Virus record (IMG/VR): IMGVR_UViG_2657245091_000008
Direction: 5' to 3' (one strand)
Source: a virus
Lineage: Duplodnaviria; Heunggongvirae; Uroviricota; Caudoviricetes
Length of the DNA: 64,000 nucleotides
The translations under genes were made by a program, and so were the position numbers. The notes below the pieces were generated by a model that saw nothing but the letters and a program-made list of their open reading frames with translations, was not told the DNA's origin and did no database searches. Within the stretch, counting starts at the first letter, position 1. Every line of letters begins with the position of its first letter. This document shows, one piece after another, positions 23,930-29,888 of the stretch.

Positions 23930-24789
23930 TCACTATTACCAAAGAGCGACTGCTGACAATCAAGCAGTGGCGCGAAACATACGGACCTGATAGCAACGTT
24001 GTACTGCCAGCAGAAGAAGCGGAAGAACTGGCGCGTATCGTGCTGGCATCGCTGGAAGCAGAGCCTGTTCTGTATCAGTCCTGCACTCGCCCCACCTGGA
24101 ATAGCGGTGTTCCGTGGACGGAATGGAAAGAACGTAGTCGTGAGTGCTACGAAGACGATTTGCGTTTTACAGACACGCCTGACCATGCCGGTTGGATATA
24201 CAAATGTCGAAAACTATATACCACTCCGCCAGCGCCGATAGCGTTAGAGGCCATTGAAAACGCAATTGAATACATTCGTAGTATCGCTTTTCACATCGAT
24301 GAAGACGATTACCACGGCAAACATATTGCGTATTTCATGCGACAAGCATTGGCCTGGCTGGAAGGGCATTCATGCAGCGACGACAGACTGGGTAAAGCCG
24401 ACAATCAACCAGTACGCGGCAACCAGGCTGCCGAATCCAATCGCGGTAATGAGTGGACCGGCAATCCTGATATTGATAACGCCATCATCATGCTCGACCG
24501 CATAGATACGCTGGAAAATTGCGATGATGACCGTATTGAGGCTGTTAAGGCTGTTTTGCGTAGACTGGCAGGCAACTCTCCGGTAACTCCGGATGGTTGG
24601 ATAAGCTGTAGTGAGCGAATGCCGGATAAGTTAATTCCGGTAATGGTCATGTATGAAGACGGTGAGATGTGGTCTGCAATGTGGAATGGTAATCGCTGGG
24701 ATGATGGCACCGAATATCCGGATCCGCACTCAGTTACGCACTGGCGTGAAATGCCAGCAGCACCGAAGCAGGAGGTTAACCGTGGCTAA
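23926..24789 (+). CDS. DUF551-domain protein
   Basis: C-terminal ...HSVTHWREMPAAPK resembles the DUF551 signature. Confidence 0.55.
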   Translation: MITITKERLLTIKQWRETYGPDSNVVLPAEEAEELARIVLASLEAEPVLYQSCTRPTWNSGVPWTEWKERSRECYEDDLRFTDTPDHAGWIYKCRKLYTTPPAPIALEAIENAIEYIRSIAFHIDEDDYHGKHIAYFMRQALAWLEGHSCSDDRLGKADNQPVRGNQAAESNRGNEWTGNPDIDNAIIMLDRIDTLENCDDDRIEAVKAVLRRLAGNSPVTPDGWISCSERMPDKLIPVMVMYEDGEMWSAMWNGNRWDDGTEYPDPHSVTHWREMPAAPKQEVNRG

Positions 24790-25081
24790 CCTGCAACTTG
24801 CCGTTAAAGGTGAATACTTCGATGCCATGATTCGCGGAGAGAAAACGGAAGAGTATCGCCTGTGTAATGACTACTGGAATAAGCGAATTATGTTCCGGGA
24901 GTATGACCGCCTGATTATCACAAAGGGATATCCGAAGCGCGACGACTTCAGTCGCAGAATTGACGTCCCGTATAACGGATATGAAATAAAAACAATCACA
25001 CATCCCCACTTCGGCGATAAACCGGTAAAGGTGTTCGCGATAAAGGTAAAATTAACACGGAGTAATTATGTGGCGCGGTAA
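24782..25081 (+). CDS. ASCH-domain protein
   Basis: GTG start with GGAGG upstream; AVKGEYFDAMIRGEKTEEYR matches the ASCH GxKxxExR motif. Confidence 0.5.
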   Translation: MANLQLAVKGEYFDAMIRGEKTEEYRLCNDYWNKRIMFREYDRLIITKGYPKRDDFSRRIDVPYNGYEIKTITHPHFGDKPVKVFAIKVKLTRSNYVAR

Positions 25082-25361
25082 TAATCATGGCGGAAGCCAG
25101 ATGATACTTACCGAATATACGTTCGACCACAAAACCAATAAATCACGTTCAGTATATTTGCTTCGGCACAATAGCCGCGTAAGAAATACCGTGCTGGAGC
25201 AAAATCTGACCGTCGAAATGGATAATTTGGGAAACTTCAAGCCAACAATATCGCTTGATGATTTTCCGTGTGGTTTAAGCGAAAGAGAAGCAATGCTGAA
25301 ATTAGCAGAATGGTTACAAAGATTGAGCATTGCTATTGAAGATAACTGGATTCAACCATAA
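25068..25361 (+). CDS. hypothetical protein
   Basis: 97-aa ORF, coupled. Confidence 0.4.
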   Translation: MWRGNNHGGSQMILTEYTFDHKTNKSRSVYLLRHNSRVRNTVLEQNLTVEMDNLGNFKPTISLDDFPCGLSEREAMLKLAEWLQRLSIAIEDNWIQP

Positions 25362-25385
25362 TGAAAAACAGAAAGAAAGATTGCT

Positions 25386-25595
25386 ATGACAACATTTAGT
25401 AAATTCGCAGTAATTATGATTTTATTAATCCCCCTCACTGTTACAGCAGGGGAACAGCAACATTGCACAAAAGAGAATGAACACCCTTTCATCGTTATTC
25501 AATGCGATGACGGAACGGTGACTGTGGTTAATGTAAGAAATGACCGTGTAGCTGTTTGCCGTAAAGGCGAACCATGCAAGGAAATAAAACTATGA
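25386..25595 (+). CDS. hypothetical small secreted protein
   Basis: 69-aa ORF with signal-peptide-like N-terminus and 4 Cys. Confidence 0.4.
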   Translation: MTTFSKFAVIMILLIPLTVTAGEQQHCTKENEHPFIVIQCDDGTVTVVNVRNDRVAVCRKGEPCKEIKL

Positions 25596-26341
25596 CAAGA
25601 ATCACTAAAGAGCGTATTTCAGATATTATTTCCCGTATCGAAATGTATGGTCACGGTGCTGGATACACAGCAGATGAAGTATTGGAGCTTGCCAAAATAG
25701 CTTTAGCGCCTTGCAAGGATGGTAAAGCTATGACACTGATTGACTTGTTAGTGAAGGAATTATCTAAGGGGCGTGGATGGCCTGATGGAAAAGATTTTTG
25801 CCATCTATCCATTACGATGCCAGGTAGTAGTCGCGCTACGGTTCTTTTTGGTACGCGCCATAAAAATTACCAATCATCAAAGAATTATTCCATTGATGGC
25901 ATTATTTGCGATATCAGTGACCTTGATCGCAGTGCGTTTACATCGGTTGTCACTCGTGAACAGTATGAAGCAGCTCGCATAGCGTCTCAGAAAGTTAAGT
26001 CTGAAAGTAAGGCTTACAAGTTAGATTTTGAGCAATGGCTGGAACAGCAACGCGGGAAAATCGATGTGGACTGCGGTTGTGTGTCTGCGGAAACATTCAT
26101 GCACTGGTTGCGGGTAGCTTATGAGGCTGGCAACCATCCGGATTTTCCGGATAGTTCCCAACAATCGCCCAAGAAAAGCGTAAAAACCACTCTGGAAAGA
26201 GGCTATCTTGAGGCCGCATTAAAGATTAAGCCGGGCCATACGCTAGGCGTCATTGATGCCATGTTGGTTCATGAAATGGCTAAGGCTTTATTGCCACTGG
26301 TAGCAGATCAACATGAGGCGAGTCATGCCAACGAAAGCTGA
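25592..26341 (+). CDS. hypothetical protein
   Basis: Start at the ATG overlapping the upstream stop; about 249 aa. Confidence 0.45.
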   Translation: MTRITKERISDIISRIEMYGHGAGYTADEVLELAKIALAPCKDGKAMTLIDLLVKELSKGRGWPDGKDFCHLSITMPGSSRATVLFGTRHKNYQSSKNYSIDGIICDISDLDRSAFTSVVTREQYEAARIASQKVKSESKAYKLDFEQWLEQQRGKIDVDCGCVSAETFMHWLRVAYEAGNHPDFPDSSQQSPKKSVKTTLERGYLEAALKIKPGHTLGVIDAMLVHEMAKALLPLVADQHEASHANES

Positions 26342-26609
26342 ACTACAGACGCGTGTAGAGGAACTTGAAAAAGAGAACGCTGGCCTCAAAAAAATGCTGG
26401 CCCGGGCAGAAAGGGAGTTGTCCGGCAAACTTCTGCCAGAAGAACTGCCACCAGCAGATATACCCGAGCGAGTGTCCCGGTGGATGAAATCTTTTTGTTT
26501 GCCGTGGGAGACTTTTTGGTGCTACGACCATCGCAGATGGTGTGATGAGCTTGATAGCAGTTTCCCCTATTTTGCGGAAGGGAACTCTTGCCCTGAATGT
26601 AGGAGTTAA
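26313..26609 (+). CDS. small coiled-coil / zinc-ribbon protein (tandem paralogue A)
   Basis: 98 aa; C-terminal W..F.C.DH..W.DELDSSFPYF...CPEC shared with the next gene. Confidence 0.45.
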   Translation: MRRVMPTKAELQTRVEELEKENAGLKKMLARAERELSGKLLPEELPPADIPERVSRWMKSFCLPWETFWCYDHRRWCDELDSSFPYFAEGNSCPECRS

Positions 26610-26914
26610 TGATGACCGGCGAGCTTTATTTTAAAATGGCACGGGAGCGGCGTGTGCATCTGGATCGGATATTTCATCTCCAGAAGAGAGTAGAAGAACT
26701 GGAACGTCGTCTGAACTGTTATCCTGTTGATATGGTGTCTGCAATACCGCCGATTCCAATAGAAATGCAGATCCGCCTATGGATGGAAGAATATGGAATG
26801 CCGTGGGAGATATTTTTCTGCTTCGACCATAAACAGTGGGTAGATGAGCTGGATAATAGTTTCCCATATTTCACAGAGAACACATGCCCAGTATGCAGGA
26901 AGAACGGAATATGA
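26609..26914 (+). CDS. small coiled-coil / zinc-ribbon protein (tandem paralogue B)
   Basis: 101 aa; same C-terminal motif (WEIFFCFDHKQWVDELDNSFPYF...CPVC). Confidence 0.45.
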   Translation: MMTGELYFKMARERRVHLDRIFHLQKRVEELERRLNCYPVDMVSAIPPIPIEMQIRLWMEEYGMPWEIFFCFDHKQWVDELDNSFPYFTENTCPVCRKNGI

Positions 26915-27435
26915 CAAAATTTGGAAAGCTGGAAGCTCATTTGCTAACTCGTAACTACCGCCATGATATACACCCATATAGACAGTGGATCGATGAAAGC
27001 GAAGGAGTAGTTACATTCCCTCTATACAGGTTTGATGGGATGTTGGCTGGGTATCAGACATATAGACCAGGTGCTCCTAAGCAGCATAGCAATCCGAAGA
27101 TGGCCCGGTATTTCACGCGATCACACGGCAGACAGTTACTTTGGGGAACCTATCTTCCTTTAAAAGATGGCCCAATATGGATAACTGAGTCTATTTTTAA
27201 GAGCGCAGCTGTACACAACGCGGGCGGCAATTCGTGGGCGCTGTTAGGTTCAACTTTCTCCGCAGGATTACGCCGTCAACTTGCGATGCTGCCGTATGAC
27301 TTTCGTGTAATAGGTGACAATGATGCGGCTGGTGAATCACTTGTGAAGTCTTTCGGAAAAGGTTTTGTGGCCCCGGATCTTGACGAGCTACAACCACATG
27401 AAGTGTCTCATTTGATTTTTAGCCATAGCCAATAA
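26911..27435 (+). CDS. Toprim-domain protein
   Basis: Conserved ITES...VIGDNDAAG (Toprim Glu and DxD) arrangement; start overlaps the upstream stop. Confidence 0.45.
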   Translation: MTKFGKLEAHLLTRNYRHDIHPYRQWIDESEGVVTFPLYRFDGMLAGYQTYRPGAPKQHSNPKMARYFTRSHGRQLLWGTYLPLKDGPIWITESIFKSAAVHNAGGNSWALLGSTFSAGLRRQLAMLPYDFRVIGDNDAAGESLVKSFGKGFVAPDLDELQPHEVSHLIFSHSQ

Positions 27436-27643
27436 GCATCTCTCCCCTTTGAGGTCACAATTAGTGGCCTTAAACAATGTGTTTTCTACCTCGATTTAGC
27501 CTTTATTATCGTTTTGCATTTCTCTAATCCGGGCAACGAGGTTACGCTGATCCGTTGGTGATGAATAGTAGCAAAGCGCACAAAATCATCAGCGGTGGTT
27601 GATGTACGTAACGCGTTTGCACCAAAGGTGTCTCTTTAATGTA

Positions 27644-27663
27644 TACTGTATAAATGAACAGTA
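27644..27663 (+). promoter_or_regulatory. LexA (SOS) box
   Basis: TACTGTATAAATGAACAGTA fits CTGT-N8-ACAG exactly, 20 bp upstream of humD. Confidence 0.75.
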
Positions 27664-27682
27664 TCATTGAGGTGAAAACGCT

Positions 27683-28072
27683 ATGGGCTTCCCTTCTCCT
27701 GCGGCGGATTATGTTGAAAGCCGAATTTCTCTTGATCAGCAACTAATCAGGCATCCATCAGCAACCTACTTCATGCGGGCGGCAGACAGCCATCACCGTG
27801 AGGGAATATTGCAGGGTGCTTTGCTGGTGGTTGATTCTTCGCTTACTCCAGTTGATGGTTCGCTGCTTGTGTGCGCTATGGAGGGTGAATATCGCATAAA
27901 GAGATACCGAAAGTATCCGCGCCAGCACCTGGAGGATTTAAGCACCGGGAAGAAAGAGGCGTTACCAGTAGATGACGATGGTTACACGGGTAGTAATGCT
28001 GTTTTTGGTGTGATCACTCATGTCATCAATGATGCCCGAAGTGGGGAGTTTGATGATTGTCCGGTCATTTAA
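27683..28072 (+). CDS. humD: UmuD'-like protein (HumD)
   Basis: Begins MGFPSPAADYVE, i.e. at the position of the UmuD cleavage product; SOS box upstream; followed by phd-doc as in P1. Confidence 0.8.
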   Translation: MGFPSPAADYVESRISLDQQLIRHPSATYFMRAADSHHREGILQGALLVVDSSLTPVDGSLLVCAMEGEYRIKRYRKYPRQHLEDLSTGKKEALPVDDDGYTGSNAVFGVITHVINDARSGEFDDCPVI

Positions 28073-28144
28073 GCTGCAAAGTGCTGGTGCTTTATGCCTG
28101 TGAAGTTTATGATTGTGTACACATAACGAGTACACGAGGTGTTT

Positions 28145-28366
28145 ATGCAGTCCATTAACTTCCGTACCGCGCGCGGCAACCTTTCTGAATTGCTCAACAA
28201 TGTTGAAGCCGGGGAAGAGGTTGAAATCACCCGCAGAGGCCGTGAACCAGCAGTAATTGTCAGCAAGGCTACTTTCGAAGCCTACAAAAAGGCGGCGCTG
28301 GATGCTGAATTTGCATCCCTGTTTGACACCCTGGACTCCACCAACAAGGAACTGGTTAACCGATAA
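28145..28366 (+). CDS. phd: antitoxin Phd
   Basis: 73-aa product [39 protein letters not shown]...; GAGGTG Shine-Dalgarno; overlaps the doc start. Confidence 0.9.
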
Positions 28367-28746
28367 TGAGGCATATATCACCGGAAGAACTTATTGCGCT
28401 TCATGATGCGAATATAAGCCGCTACGGCGGCCTGCCGGGAATGTCAGATCCGGGTAGGGCAGAGGCCATTATCGGGAGAGTTCAGGCCAGAGTTGCCTAC
28501 GAAGAGATCACCGACCTTTTCGAAGTCTCCGCAACCTACCTGGTGGCTACTGCGAGAGGGCATATATTCAATGATGCCAATAAGCGTACCGCGCTAAACA
28601 GTGCGCTGCTATTTCTACGCCGTAACGGTATACAGGTATATGATTCTCCCGTGCTGGTGGAACTTGCGGTGGGGGCTGCAACTGGTGAAATCCCCGTATC
28701 TTCAGTAGCGGAAAAACTACGTGAACTATATGGTTCCAATATTTGA
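28366..28746 (+). CDS. doc: toxin Doc (Fic family)
   Basis: 126-aa product [22 protein letters not shown]..., recognisable as P1 Doc. Confidence 0.9.
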
Positions 28747-28781
28747 AAAGAAGCCCGCTCAACCAGGCGGGCTTCCTACTA

Positions 28782-29888
28782 TCACTCAATGATTTTTTCT
28801 GCTGTCAGCCAGCTAATTTCTTGCCTGTCTTTCGGCGGTTTTAGCATGTGGGCGTATTCAGCAACATTCTCCCACGGAATTGTTTTTGCCCACTCAACGA
28901 TAGCATTGTGATCTGCAGTGAAGAGTGGAATGGTGTGCGATTTCAACCACTCCAATGTTGTAACGCCATGTTTTTTGGCGTGGTGCTGTGCATGATGCCG
29001 GGCTATCACTCGTAATGGCATTATCCATTCACTACCATCAGGCATCGAAAAGCGCATTGTCTTCGGCATATCTGATTCAAGAACAGCCTCCCTAATACCA
29101 GGAAACTCACCAAGAACCATACGACGGTAGTAATCGCTGTTTTTACCACCATATATTTCTGCAATGTTATCAAGATAACCTTGAGAAATAATGGGGGTAT
29201 CTTCTGCGTTCAGCTTGATGGCTGTATAAATACCACATGGATTTTCTTCTGATTTAGCACGACCATGATGGGAATCGTAAAAGTGTCCATGCTCCTCCTC
29301 TGAAGGAGCGGACATTAAAAGTATACGTGAATCGTCACTTACTAACGATGCTCTTAACATGCTGAATAGCCGATCGCCAGCAAGAGCCGCCTCCGTAACA
29401 ATGATTAAAAGATGTTCAGCATAATATCCACCGAAACCTTCCTCATAATTTCGGTGATATGGCTTAATTTCGCAGCCCCAATATTCCCGGTAACGATGAT
29501 TGATGCCGTTTCCATCGACTTTAAAATATTCTCCCAGCAATGGGATTCTGTTACTGACTCTATCCCAATACGTACTTATGTATTGGATAACTTGCCTGCG
29601 ACAATTATAGAACTTTGGGGAAACAATAACCGTTTTAGACTCAGGCATCAGGATTGTATAAAGAATACTAATTATAGCGATAACCGTCTTTTGGCCTATC
29701 CCTTCAGGAGTGGTGACGCTGACTGCTGAACCTTTTTGTTGAATCGCCTCAACAATTAGCTTTTGCTGGTGGGTTAACTTAACACCCATCAACTCTTCTG
29801 CTGCTAATGCCCAGTCATGGCTATATTTGCTTACCAGCTCTCTCCACTCTGGTAATTCGGTGATGTTTTTAGGCGTCAGCATCAGCAT
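28782..29888 (-). CDS. terminase-large-subunit (PacB)-like ATPase paralogue
   Basis: Region GFGGYYAEHLLIIVTEAALAGDR...LLMSAPSEEEHGHFYDSHHGRAKSEENPCGIYTAIKLNAEDTP aligns by eye with the PacB core at 35223-36731; Walker-B-like DEAS is replaced by TEAA. Confidence 0.5.
   Translation of the reverse strand: MLMLTPKNITELPEWRELVSKYSHDWALAAEELMGVKLTHQQKLIVEAIQQKGSAVSVTTPEGIGQKTVIAIISILYTILMPESKTVIVSPKFYNCRRQVIQYISTYWDRVSNRIPLLGEYFKVDGNGINHRYREYWGCEIKPYHRNYEEGFGGYYAEHLLIIVTEAALAGDRLFSMLRASLVSDDSRILLMSAPSEEEHGHFYDSHHGRAKSEENPCGIYTAIKLNAEDTPIISQGYLDNIAEIYGGKNSDYYRRMVLGEFPGIREAVLESDMPKTMRFSMPDGSEWIMPLRVIARHHAQHHAKKHGVTTLEWLKSHTIPLFTADHNAIVEWAKTIPWENVAEYAHMLKPPKDRQEISWLTAEKIIE

What the first reader, a model, noticed from the sequence alone, without database searches (positions are those of the whole stretch)
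26313..27435. Tandem duplicated coiled-coil zinc-ribbon mini-proteins feeding into a Toprim protein
Two adjacent 98- and 101-aa ORFs share a C-terminal module (W..F.C.DH..W.DELD.SFPYF...CP.C) with diverged N-terminal coiled coils, and the second overlaps the start of a Toprim-domain gene.
Basis: seen in the sequence. Interest (0 to 1): 0.45.

Follow-up and report, generated by a model that had tools for sequence, protein, structure and literature searches.

The report
Paired small zinc proteins beside mini-primase
Two neighbouring small genes in a P1-like phage-plasmid are real, old relatives of each other, each a helical zipper plus a tiny zinc-binding domain of unknown function. They are swappable accessory genes and not partners of the primase-like gene that follows them.

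Summary
The window is a P1-like phage-plasmid. Gene A (26325-26609), gene B (26609-26914) and a 174-aa Toprim gene (26911-27435) lie head to tail with TAATG and ATGA overlaps. A and B are 42% identical (E 6e-24). Both belong to phrog_3797, a narrow family of free-standing ~90-115-aa phage proteins (about 40 clusters among 1.84 billion representatives). Each has an N-terminal zipper helix and a 50-residue C-x2-H-x18-C-x2-C domain. The domain models confidently (pLDDT 93) and has no Pfam or PDB match.

The pair is not a recent duplication. Synonymous sites are saturated, and each gene has closer orthologues elsewhere than its neighbour. The A-then-B order recurs in two other phage lineages without any Toprim gene.

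The functional link to Toprim is not supported. In PLSDB plasmids, A occurs in 133, full-length Toprim in 48 and B in only 14. Phage PhiR41_1 carries the same Toprim without A or B. Five sampled, more distant mini-Toprim loci have no A/B neighbour.

Toprim is a DnaG-type catalytic core from a large family of stand-alone ~174-aa phage proteins.

Most likely A and B are independent accessory binder proteins in P1 variable region 8. Their function is inferred, not shown. Interest is modest.

The parts
26325..26609 (+). Gene A: 94-aa member of phrog_3797 (A clade). N-terminal leucine-zipper helix, LLPEELPPADIP linker, and a C-terminal C-x2-H-x18-C-x2-C domain. The longest ORF starts at 26313.
   Evidence: ORF. 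GAGG Shine-Dalgarno sequence before 26325. phrog_3797 E = 1.3e-54 over residues 5-98 of the long ORF. dN/dS 0.16 against the common P1-like allele.
26609..26914 (+). Gene B: 101-aa member of phrog_3797 (B clade). Its start overlaps the stop of A (TAATG). Helix 2-36, IPPIP linker, and a zinc domain with C71, H74, C93 and C96.
   Evidence: E = 1.6e-36. AGGAG Shine-Dalgarno sequence. AlphaFold2 full length pLDDT 83. Domain alone pLDDT 93.4, pTM 0.75.
26911..27435 (+). Mini-Toprim gene: 174-aa DnaG-type catalytic core without a zinc-binding or helicase-binding domain. ATGA overlap with gene B. Acidic motifs are kept: E in WITESIF, DND in GDNDAAG, D in DLDE.
   Evidence: RefSeq start. phrog_849 'DNA primase', positions 143-333 of 435, E = 5.5e-54. 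Family profile against PDB DnaG fragments, E about 9e-4. hhalign against E. coli DnaG, probability 94.5%. Alignment.
26481..26572 (+). First copy of the 92-nt direct repeat that encodes the conserved zinc module (in gene A).
   Evidence: family D1.
26780..26871 (+). Second copy of the 92-nt direct repeat (in gene B), 72% identical to the first. It is a plausible substrate for the natural A/B hybrid proteins P0002 and P0007.
   Evidence: Hybrids seen.
25574..26341 (+). Upstream mosaic 255-aa gene whose stop overlaps the start of A. Its conserved C-terminal ~56 aa precede A in all P1-like loci examined.
27448..27474 (+). Terminator-like hairpin just after the Toprim stop. It is the likely end of the long plus-strand accessory operon.
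   Evidence: This is a consensus scan only.

Best explanation
A and B are two anciently diverged members of a small family restricted to phages (phrog_3797). Each protein is a short leucine zipper, presumably for dimerisation, joined by a proline-rich linker to a ~50-residue domain held by one zinc ion. The ligands are Cys-x2-His and Cys-x2-Cys.

The genes are mobile accessory cassettes. They sit in the non-essential, recombination-prone parts of temperate enterobacterial phages: next to xis/int in lambdoid prophages, in the nin region of P22-like phages, and here in P1 'variable region 8' upstream of humD.

Inferred mechanism: each dimer presents two copies of an acidic, aromatic-rich zinc domain (W-M-x-E-Y, P-W-E-x-F, W-x-x-E-L-D-x-S-F-P-Y). 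This domain binds a conserved cellular or phage protein stoichiometrically, as a modulator or inhibitor. It is unlikely to be an enzyme or a DNA binder. Where A and B are adjacent they may also pair with each other.

The following Toprim gene is a separate cassette, a stand-alone DnaG-type catalytic core. It happens to be joined to B in one recently spread P1-like lineage. The ATGA overlap reflects the tight packing of this operon, not an obligate partnership.

Shown: paralogy, purifying selection, the ligand pattern, family size and distribution, cassette behaviour, and the DnaG-type nature of Toprim. Inferred: zinc binding, dimerisation, and the binder or modulator role.
For: Identity of the element: the window is 99.9% identical to an E. 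coli P1-like plasmid. The region is P1 variable region 8 (pmgT...lxr-humD) according to PMC9603915.

Family:
- 55 clusters at 90% identity and only 40 representatives among 1.84 billion proteins. Nearly all are 90-115 aa and stand alone.
- The ligand His is replaced by Cys in some members (P0083, P0088, phage SE1), as expected of a metal ligand.
- dN/dS is 0.08-0.16.

Cassette behaviour:
- IMG/VR loci outside P1-likes: 17 A-only, 4 B-only, 5 A-B pairs and 6 divergent singles, none with Toprim.
- IMG/VR P1-like loci: 12 A-B-Toprim, 1 A-B without Toprim, 2 with A, then other genes, then Toprim, and 26 with A only before humD.
- PLSDB counts are 133 (A), 14 (B) and 48 (full-length Toprim). Breakpoints fall exactly at the B/Toprim boundary.
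- PhiR41_1 has Toprim with no A or B.

Other points:
- Distant Toprim homologues have unrelated neighbours.
- A and B are acidic, pI 5.1 and 5.6, with zinc-domain pI 4.6-5.1. A has no basic region ahead of its zipper.
- No Pfam, NCBIfam or PADLOC hit to the zinc domain. No PDB fold neighbour.
Against: - No direct evidence on function, and no partner identified.
- In PLSDB all 14 B genes are flanked by both A and Toprim. However, all B copies are at least 99% identical, so this counts as a single evolutionary event.
- The A-then-B order with overlapping or near-overlapping stop and start recurs in three lineages. The pair may therefore be a functional unit rather than two independent genes.
- The ligand spacing resembles the CHC2 zinc site of DnaG (recalled from memory). 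Stand-alone primase zinc ribbons next to DnaG-type Toprim proteins are reported in jumbo phages (PMC7824862).
- B has a short basic stretch (KMARERR) before its zipper.
Confidence: 0.6

Rival explanations
1. Split primase. The Toprim protein is a DnaG-type catalytic core lacking its zinc-binding domain. B (and perhaps A) supplies that template-recognition zinc module in trans, with B and Toprim co-translated through the ATGA overlap.
For: - Toprim aligns only to the catalytic centre of DnaG, residues 203-319, and to positions 143-333 of 435 of phrog_849. It therefore lacks a zinc domain.
- B has C-x2-H-x18-C-x2-C, close to DnaG's CHC2 spacing (from memory).
- B and Toprim overlap by ATGA.
- All 14 B genes in PLSDB abut Toprim.
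- A review reports stand-alone primase-type zinc ribbons accompanying DnaG-like Toprim in jumbo phages (PMC7824862).
- hhalign gives a weak local match of the ELDxSFPY..CxxC stretch to T7 gp4 residues 6-24 (probability 18.8%).
Against: - No hit to zf-CHC2 or Prim_Zn_Ribbon in any of 45 members.
- hhalign probability against the DnaG zinc domain is 0.4%.
- The predicted fold is helix / hairpin / loop / helix, not a ribbon.
- The A/B family has about 40 clusters and the Toprim family at least 720.
- A/B loci without Toprim are the majority.
- Toprim occurs without A or B in PhiR41_1 and in at least 34 PLSDB plasmids that lack B.
- Neighbours of nine distant mini-Toprim genes include no A/B family member and no Pfam-recognisable zinc ribbon; one neighbour in L009 has an unclassified Cys-rich tail.
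Confidence: 0.07
2. Obligate heterodimer. A and B work only together, as a zipper heterodimer carrying two different zinc domains. The tandem pair is the functional unit. Single-copy relatives are homodimeric ancestors or degenerate forms.
For: - The A-then-B order with overlapping or adjacent stop and start is kept in three separate lineages at 56-72% identity: P1-likes, L031-35 and L026.
- The two share a zipper core, LQxRVEELE.
- In PLSDB, B is never found without A.
Against: - A alone is the commonest state in P1-likes (about 119 of 133 plasmids; 26 IMG/VR loci) and in lambdoid prophages (17 loci).
- B alone occurs in at least 5 distinct loci.
- Both clades are under purifying selection as singles.
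Confidence: 0.2
3. Small DNA-binding regulators: bZIP-like dimers, or zinc-finger DNA binders that control phage or host transcription.
For: - Weak bZIP_1/bZIP_2 Pfam hits to the zipper (E 0.003-0.03).
- phrog_4580 'transcription factor' hit to the zipper of A (E 7.7e-5).
- B has a short basic run (KMARERR) before the zipper.
- Zinc domains often bind nucleic acids.
Against: - The hits cover only the coiled coil and fall below Pfam cut-offs.
- A starts directly with the zipper and has no basic region.
- Both proteins and their zinc domains are acidic (pI 4.6-5.6).
- No DNA-binding fold was recovered.
Confidence: 0.1
4. Phd-type antitoxin, as the NCBI and UniRef name 'antitoxin PHD' for A-type proteins implies.
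For: The database name only.
Against: - No Phd/YefM Pfam or NCBIfam hit.
- No adjacent toxin gene.
- The genuine phd-doc pair lies at 28139-28746.
- The predicted fold is unrelated.
Confidence: 0.01

Closest known systems
PHROG family phrog_3797 (unknown function)
   Same: Both A and B match it over their full length (E = 1.3e-54 and 1.6e-36). Same size and same architecture.
   Different: The family has no assigned function, no Pfam model and no solved structure. The split into A and B clades and their recurrent tandem arrangement are not described, as far as the paper library shows.
Zinc-binding domain of DnaG / T7 gp4 primases (Pfam zf-CHC2, Prim_Zn_Ribbon), including the stand-alone primase zinc ribbons of jumbo phages (PMC7824862)
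   Same: Four-ligand Cys/His site with CHC2-like spacing. It sits immediately upstream of a DnaG-type Toprim core that lacks its own zinc domain.
   Different: No sequence or profile similarity (weak 19-column match). The predicted fold is not a ribbon. It is fused to a zipper. Its genomic distribution is decoupled from Toprim.
Lambda Ea8.5-type small zinc proteins of the pL-distal accessory region (recalled from memory: about 93 aa, hybrid homeodomain/zinc-finger fold)
   Same: Small zinc-binding non-essential proteins encoded just upstream of xis/int in lambdoid phages, with unknown function.
   Different: No match to any PDB sequence or fold. Different ligand pattern and an N-terminal zipper.
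Leucine-zipper (bZIP-like) dimerisation helices
   Same: A heptad pattern of about four repeats. In A, L7/L14/L21/A28 fall at d positions and V11/N18/L25/L32 at a positions. An Asn at an a position is typical of parallel dimers (established knowledge for GCN4). AlphaFold2 gives a single long helix.
   Different: No bZIP basic region. Pfam scores are below cut-off. The oligomeric state has not been tested.
Stand-alone ~174-aa DnaG-like Toprim proteins of phages (phrog_849 and related; annotated 'DNA primase')
   Same: The window's Toprim protein is a typical member. There are at least 720 clusters, nearly all 171-180 aa, and 490 phage records. The Toprim acidic residues are conserved.
   Different: In lytic Kagunavirus the gene follows an SNF2 helicase in the replication module. 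Here it is an accessory cassette in a phage-plasmid that already uses host replication functions. Primase activity of this minimal form is unproven.

Membership tests
phrog_3797 | Full-length match to the family profile | tested here: met
   A: E = 1.3e-54, profile positions 1-94 of 94. B: E = 1.6e-36.
Primase zinc-binding domain (zf-CHC2 / Prim_Zn_Ribbon) | Sequence or profile similarity to the primase zinc-domain families | tested here: not met
   No Pfam hit at E <= 10 in 45 members. hhalign probability 0.4% against DnaG residues 1-100 and 18.8% over 19 columns against T7 gp4 residues 1-70.
Primase zinc-binding domain (zf-CHC2 / Prim_Zn_Ribbon) | Four Cys/His zinc ligands in two knuckles | tested here: met
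   C-x2-H-x18-C-x2-C is invariant. The His is replaced by Cys in some members. Zinc binding itself cannot be tested with these tools.
Primase zinc-binding domain (zf-CHC2 / Prim_Zn_Ribbon) | Zinc-ribbon (all-beta) fold | tested here: not met
Primase zinc-binding domain (zf-CHC2 / Prim_Zn_Ribbon) | Fusion to, or consistent co-occurrence with, a primase catalytic domain | tested here: not met
   None of the 40 representatives is fused to Toprim. Co-occurrence is limited to one P1-like lineage.
Phd/YefM antitoxin | Match to the Phd/YefM family and an adjacent cognate toxin | tested here: not met
   No Pfam or NCBIfam hit. The neighbours are B and Toprim. The real phd-doc pair is 1.5 kb downstream.
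bZIP transcription factors | Basic DNA-contact region directly N-terminal to the zipper, and a score above the Pfam cut-off | tested here: not met
   bZIP_1 scores 18.1 bits against a cut-off of 27.6, over the zipper part only. A has no basic region, and B has only KMARERR.
DnaG-type Toprim primase core (the downstream gene) | Toprim acidic motifs (E; DxD) together with the DnaG motif region upstream of them | tested here: met
   Alignment. hhalign probability 94.5%, E = 8e-8, to DnaG residues 203-319. PDB DnaG fragments at E about 9e-4. phrog_849 E = 5.5e-54. The window protein itself has no Pfam hit, but 8 of 13 relatives hit Toprim_2.
DnaG-type Toprim primase core (the downstream gene) | Primer synthesis activity | not testable with these tools
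   Requires biochemistry. The zinc-binding and helicase-binding domains are absent.

The most novel reading that the evidence does not exclude
B, and perhaps A, is a previously unrecognised non-ribbon zinc module carrying a dimerising zipper. It acts in trans as the template-recognition subunit of a DnaG-type mini-primase that lacks its own zinc domain. This would be a split, dimer-tethered primase carried as an accessory cassette by a phage-plasmid.
Probability: 0.06. Interest if true: 0.6.

Novelty: new variant of a known kind. Interest (0 to 1): 0.3.

Why it matters
The result removes a tempting but unsupported 'three-gene system'. What remains is a compact, well-conserved family of phage proteins with a confidently modelled zinc domain that matches no Pfam family or PDB fold.

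Such small early or accessory proteins of temperate phages are a main source of newly found host-takeover and anti-defence factors. The clear ligand pattern, the invariant surface motif and the natural single and paired variants make this family easy to test.

The analysis also shows that P1 variable region 8 exchanges whole genes at exact gene boundaries with lambdoid phages. Finally, the ~174-aa stand-alone DnaG-like Toprim proteins form a very large phage family whose 'primase' label is untested.

Tried and rejected
- Sequence search of PDB with B and with Toprim found nothing useful.
- PADLOC gave only a marginal hit of Toprim to a DRT DnaG-like model (E 0.049). NCBIfam gave nothing.
- Rfam found no RNA family in 24000-29000. 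There are no inverted repeats in the locus.
- Literature searches for the protein accessions and PHROG ids found no paper. A phage-plasmid survey preprint does not mention these genes.
- I looked for a conserved neighbour of A or B across 24 loci. The only recurrent one is a 112-aa Cys-rich protein downstream of A in lambdoid prophages. It is absent from the window.
- A link to umuD'-like genes (adjacent in L031-35 and near humD in P1-likes) is most simply explained by shared synteny of related accessory arrays. I did not pursue it.
The structure tool takes single chains, and the genes are in different reading frames.
Full report
**What the window is.** The 2.2 kb around the finding is 99.9% identical to an E. 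coli O45:H2 plasmid and 94-96% identical to many other non-mobilisable ~92-100 kb plasmids of E. coli, Salmonella and Shigella. It also matches P1-group phages (SJ46, P1, P7, RCS47, D6) piecewise. Downstream lie humD, phd and doc. The window is therefore a P1-like phage-plasmid. [quoted passage not shown] In relatives the same long plus-strand array carries Ead/Ea22-like, Eaa, DUF551 and ASCH genes typical of lambdoid accessory regions.

**The observation.**
- ORFs of 98, 101 and 183 aa are at the stated coordinates.
- The two small proteins are 42% identical over 89 residues, E = 6e-24. The shared module is also visible as a 92-nt direct repeat at 72% identity.
- Shine-Dalgarno sequences, the PHROG profile and the homologue alignments place the real starts at 26325 (A), 26609 (B) and 26911 (Toprim).
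- The junctions are therefore TAATG and ATGA overlaps. A's start also overlaps the end of the preceding 255-aa gene.
- A terminator-like hairpin follows the Toprim stop.
- No Rfam family and no inverted repeat is present.

**What A and B are.**
- Both match phrog_3797 (unknown function) end to end. Neither matches anything in Pfam, NCBIfam or PADLOC beyond weak coiled-coil noise.
- A word-indexed search of 5.8 billion protein clusters found 55 clusters. An exhaustive profile search of 1.84 billion representatives found only 40. Nearly all are 90-115 aa and stand alone. The few longer ones are fusions to the upstream gene or noise.
- Across 45 members the invariant or near-invariant positions are C, H, W, L-D, F-P, C and C, in the pattern F-x-C-x2-H-x2-W-x3-L-D-x2-F-P-x(5-7)-C-x2-C. 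The His is Cys in some members, including a P22-like phage. This is the behaviour expected of a metal ligand.
- AlphaFold2 models B as a long helix (residues 2-36), a proline-rich linker and a small C-terminal domain (pLDDT 83).
- Modelled alone with 45 sequences, the domain reaches pLDDT 93.4 and pTM 0.75. It has two short helices, one hairpin bearing the C-x2-H knuckle, a long loop and a terminal helix starting at C-x2-C.
- In A the heptad positions L7/L14/L21/A28 and V11/N18/L25/L32 form a four-heptad zipper with Asn at an a position. This is my reading of the sequence; the dimer inference rests on general knowledge of GCN4-type zippers.
- Both proteins are acidic (pI 5.1 and 5.6), and so are their zinc domains (pI 4.6-5.1).
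- The genes are under purifying selection: dN/dS is 0.16 for the window's A against the common P1-like allele, and 0.08 between two B orthologues.

**Is it a tandem duplication?** Not a local, recent one.
- Synonymous sites between A and B are saturated (pS 0.73).
- The family splits into an A clade (MPTKAELQ..., LLPEELPP linker) and a B clade (ELYFKMARERR..., STIPPIP linker).
- Each clade has orthologues in other phages that are closer than the two window genes are to each other: A 56-64%, B 58-72%.
- The order A then B, tightly abutted, does recur outside P1-likes: in four 83-90 kb contigs (L031-33, L035) and in a small integrase-bearing contig (L026). In the first group the pair follows a umuD'-like gene in an array that shares DUF551 and ASCH genes with the window.
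- The pairing is therefore old or repeatedly assembled. It may reflect heteromer formation, but single A and single B loci are more numerous.

**Is Toprim a partner?** The comparative evidence says no.

In 75 IMG/VR loci fetched with the family profile:

| Locus type | State | Count |
|---|---|---|
| Non-P1 | A only | 17 |
| Non-P1 | B only | 4 |
| Non-P1 | A-B pair | 5 |
| Non-P1 | divergent single | 6 |
| P1-like | A-B-Toprim | 12 |
| P1-like | A-B then other genes, no Toprim (L025) | 1 |
| P1-like | A, ~630 bp of other genes, then Toprim (L039, L043) | 2 |
| P1-like | A only before humD | 26 |

None of the non-P1 loci has a Toprim gene.

- In PLSDB, A is present in 133 plasmids, B in 14 (all at least 99% identical) and full-length Toprim in 48.
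- All 14 B genes have both junctions. The other 34 Toprim genes have a different upstream neighbour, and similarity breaks exactly at the gene boundary.
- Two P1-like phage genomes, PhiR41_1 and CMS-2020a, carry the Toprim gene at 98-99% identity yet are absent from the list of phage records encoding any A/B relative. In PhiR41_1, Toprim follows an EaA-like gene.
- Toprim homologues at 38-64% identity in five other phage contigs have unrelated neighbours.
- Because every B copy in P1-likes is nearly identical, the B-Toprim junction counts as one evolutionary event.

**What the Toprim protein is.**
- It matches phrog_849 'DNA primase' over profile positions 143-333 of 435.
- A profile of its family hits the RNA-polymerase domains of DnaG in the PDB at E about 9e-4.
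- It aligns to E. coli DnaG residues 203-319 with hhalign probability 94.5%. Its match to T7 gp4 is poor.
- The Toprim Glu and DxD are conserved.
- It lacks the zinc-binding and helicase-binding domains.
- A profile search found at least 720 clusters, almost all 171-180 aa, and 490 cultured-phage records.
- Contexts vary: after an SNF2 helicase in the replication module of Kagunavirus, among small genes in a ~300 kb phage contig, next to a T4 Rnl1-type RNA ligase, and next to an RtcB-like ligase in an Erwinia jumbo phage.
- Its biochemical role (primase or another Toprim activity) is open.

**The split-primase idea.** It deserves a hearing. The ligand spacing resembles DnaG's CHC2 site (from memory), and a jumbo-phage review reports stand-alone primase-type zinc ribbons accompanying DnaG-like Toprim proteins (PMC7824862). 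It fails every test available here:
- No zf-CHC2 or Prim_Zn_Ribbon hit in 45 members.
- hhalign probability 0.4% against the DnaG zinc domain, and 18.8% over 19 columns against that of T7.
- A predicted fold that is not a ribbon.
- No fusion to Toprim in any family member.
- No co-distribution (previous section).
- No Pfam-recognisable zinc ribbon or A/B relative next to the other mini-Toprim genes examined. One downstream neighbour in L009 has an unclassified Cys-rich tail.

I leave it at about 6-7%.

**Other readings.** The database name 'antitoxin PHD' attached to A-type proteins has no support. A bZIP-like DNA-binding role is unlikely: A has no basic region and both proteins are acidic.

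**Where the family lives.**
- In lambdoid prophages it lies towards the end of the early-left operon, one or two genes before xis/int.
- In P22-like Salmonella phage SE1 it lies between ninF and ninG, where GenBank annotates only a 54-aa fragment.
- In P1-likes it lies in variable region 8.
- Hosts named in records are Escherichia, Salmonella, Shigella, Klebsiella, Pantoea, Erwinia, Proteus and Vibrio.
- These are the classic non-essential, mosaic accessory regions of temperate phages.

**Verdict.** The sequence observation is correct. The 'system' is not. A and B are ancient paralogues of an uncharacterised zipper-plus-zinc-domain family that behave as independent, exchangeable accessory genes. 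Toprim is a separate cassette. My best mechanistic guess is dimeric zinc-stabilised binders of a conserved protein target, possibly heteromeric when paired. This is an inference from architecture, charge, conservation and genomic position, not a demonstrated function.

Noticed in passing
window 26911-27435; loci L092, L094, L096: The ~174-aa stand-alone DnaG-like Toprim family is very large: at least 720 clusters and 490 phage records. In two unrelated phages it sits next to RNA ligases, a T4 Rnl1-type ligase plus a Band_7 protein in L092 and an RtcB-like ligase in Erwinia phage Special G. In Kagunavirus it follows an SNF2 helicase. An RNA-end-processing role instead of priming is possible.
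   Followed up: partly
window 26481-26572 and 26780-26871; proteins P0002, P0007, P0009, P0033, P0076: Public data contain natural chimeras: A N-terminus with B C-terminus, B fused to the HumD C-terminus, the upstream mosaic gene fused to A, and A truncated into the humD leader. This suggests frequent recombination or deletion across the repeated module and its neighbours.
   Followed up: partly
window 26325-26609 (A-type proteins in NCBI/UniRef): A-type proteins are named 'antitoxin PHD' in NCBI and UniRef records without any detectable similarity to Phd/YefM. This is probably a propagated misannotation. The true phd-doc pair is at 28139-28746.
   Followed up: yes
L095 3932-4300 (Salmonella phage SE1, between ninF and ninG): A family member of about 100-120 aa, with CPEC...CRCKC ligands, is annotated in GenBank only as a 54-aa hypothetical protein.
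   Followed up: partly
window 27644-27663: A LexA-box-like palindrome, TACTGTATAAATGAACAGTA, lies 20 nt upstream of the humD start. This fits the LexA site annotated at this position in P1 and P7 records.
   Followed up: no
L003 5293-5631, L042, L055, L075, L077: In lambdoid prophages the A-type gene is regularly followed by a conserved 112-aa Cys-rich protein (MAKSAAERKAAQRARQ...CGRCGD...). It has unknown function and is not present in the window.
   Followed up: partly
L031-L033, L035 (83-90 kb IMG/VR contigs): A distant element shares the DUF551, ASCH, A and B genes with the window. It places a umuD'-like gene (31% identical to HumD) directly upstream of A. This may be a second phage-plasmid-like lineage with a related accessory array.
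   Followed up: partly
window 27300-27700 versus P1 and P7 records: Phage P7 and some P1 records match only from about window 27300, the 3' end of the Toprim gene, onward (features upf93.6 and upf94.2). In PLSDB, 94 of the 142 plasmids that match Toprim cover less than 80% of the gene. Toprim remnants therefore appear to be widespread.
   Followed up: no
L096 2408-3017 (Erwinia phage Special G gp48/gp49): The mini-Toprim homologue is split into two ORFs, and the segment around the catalytic Glu is missing from both. This could be a frameshift, an insertion or pseudogenisation.
   Followed up: no
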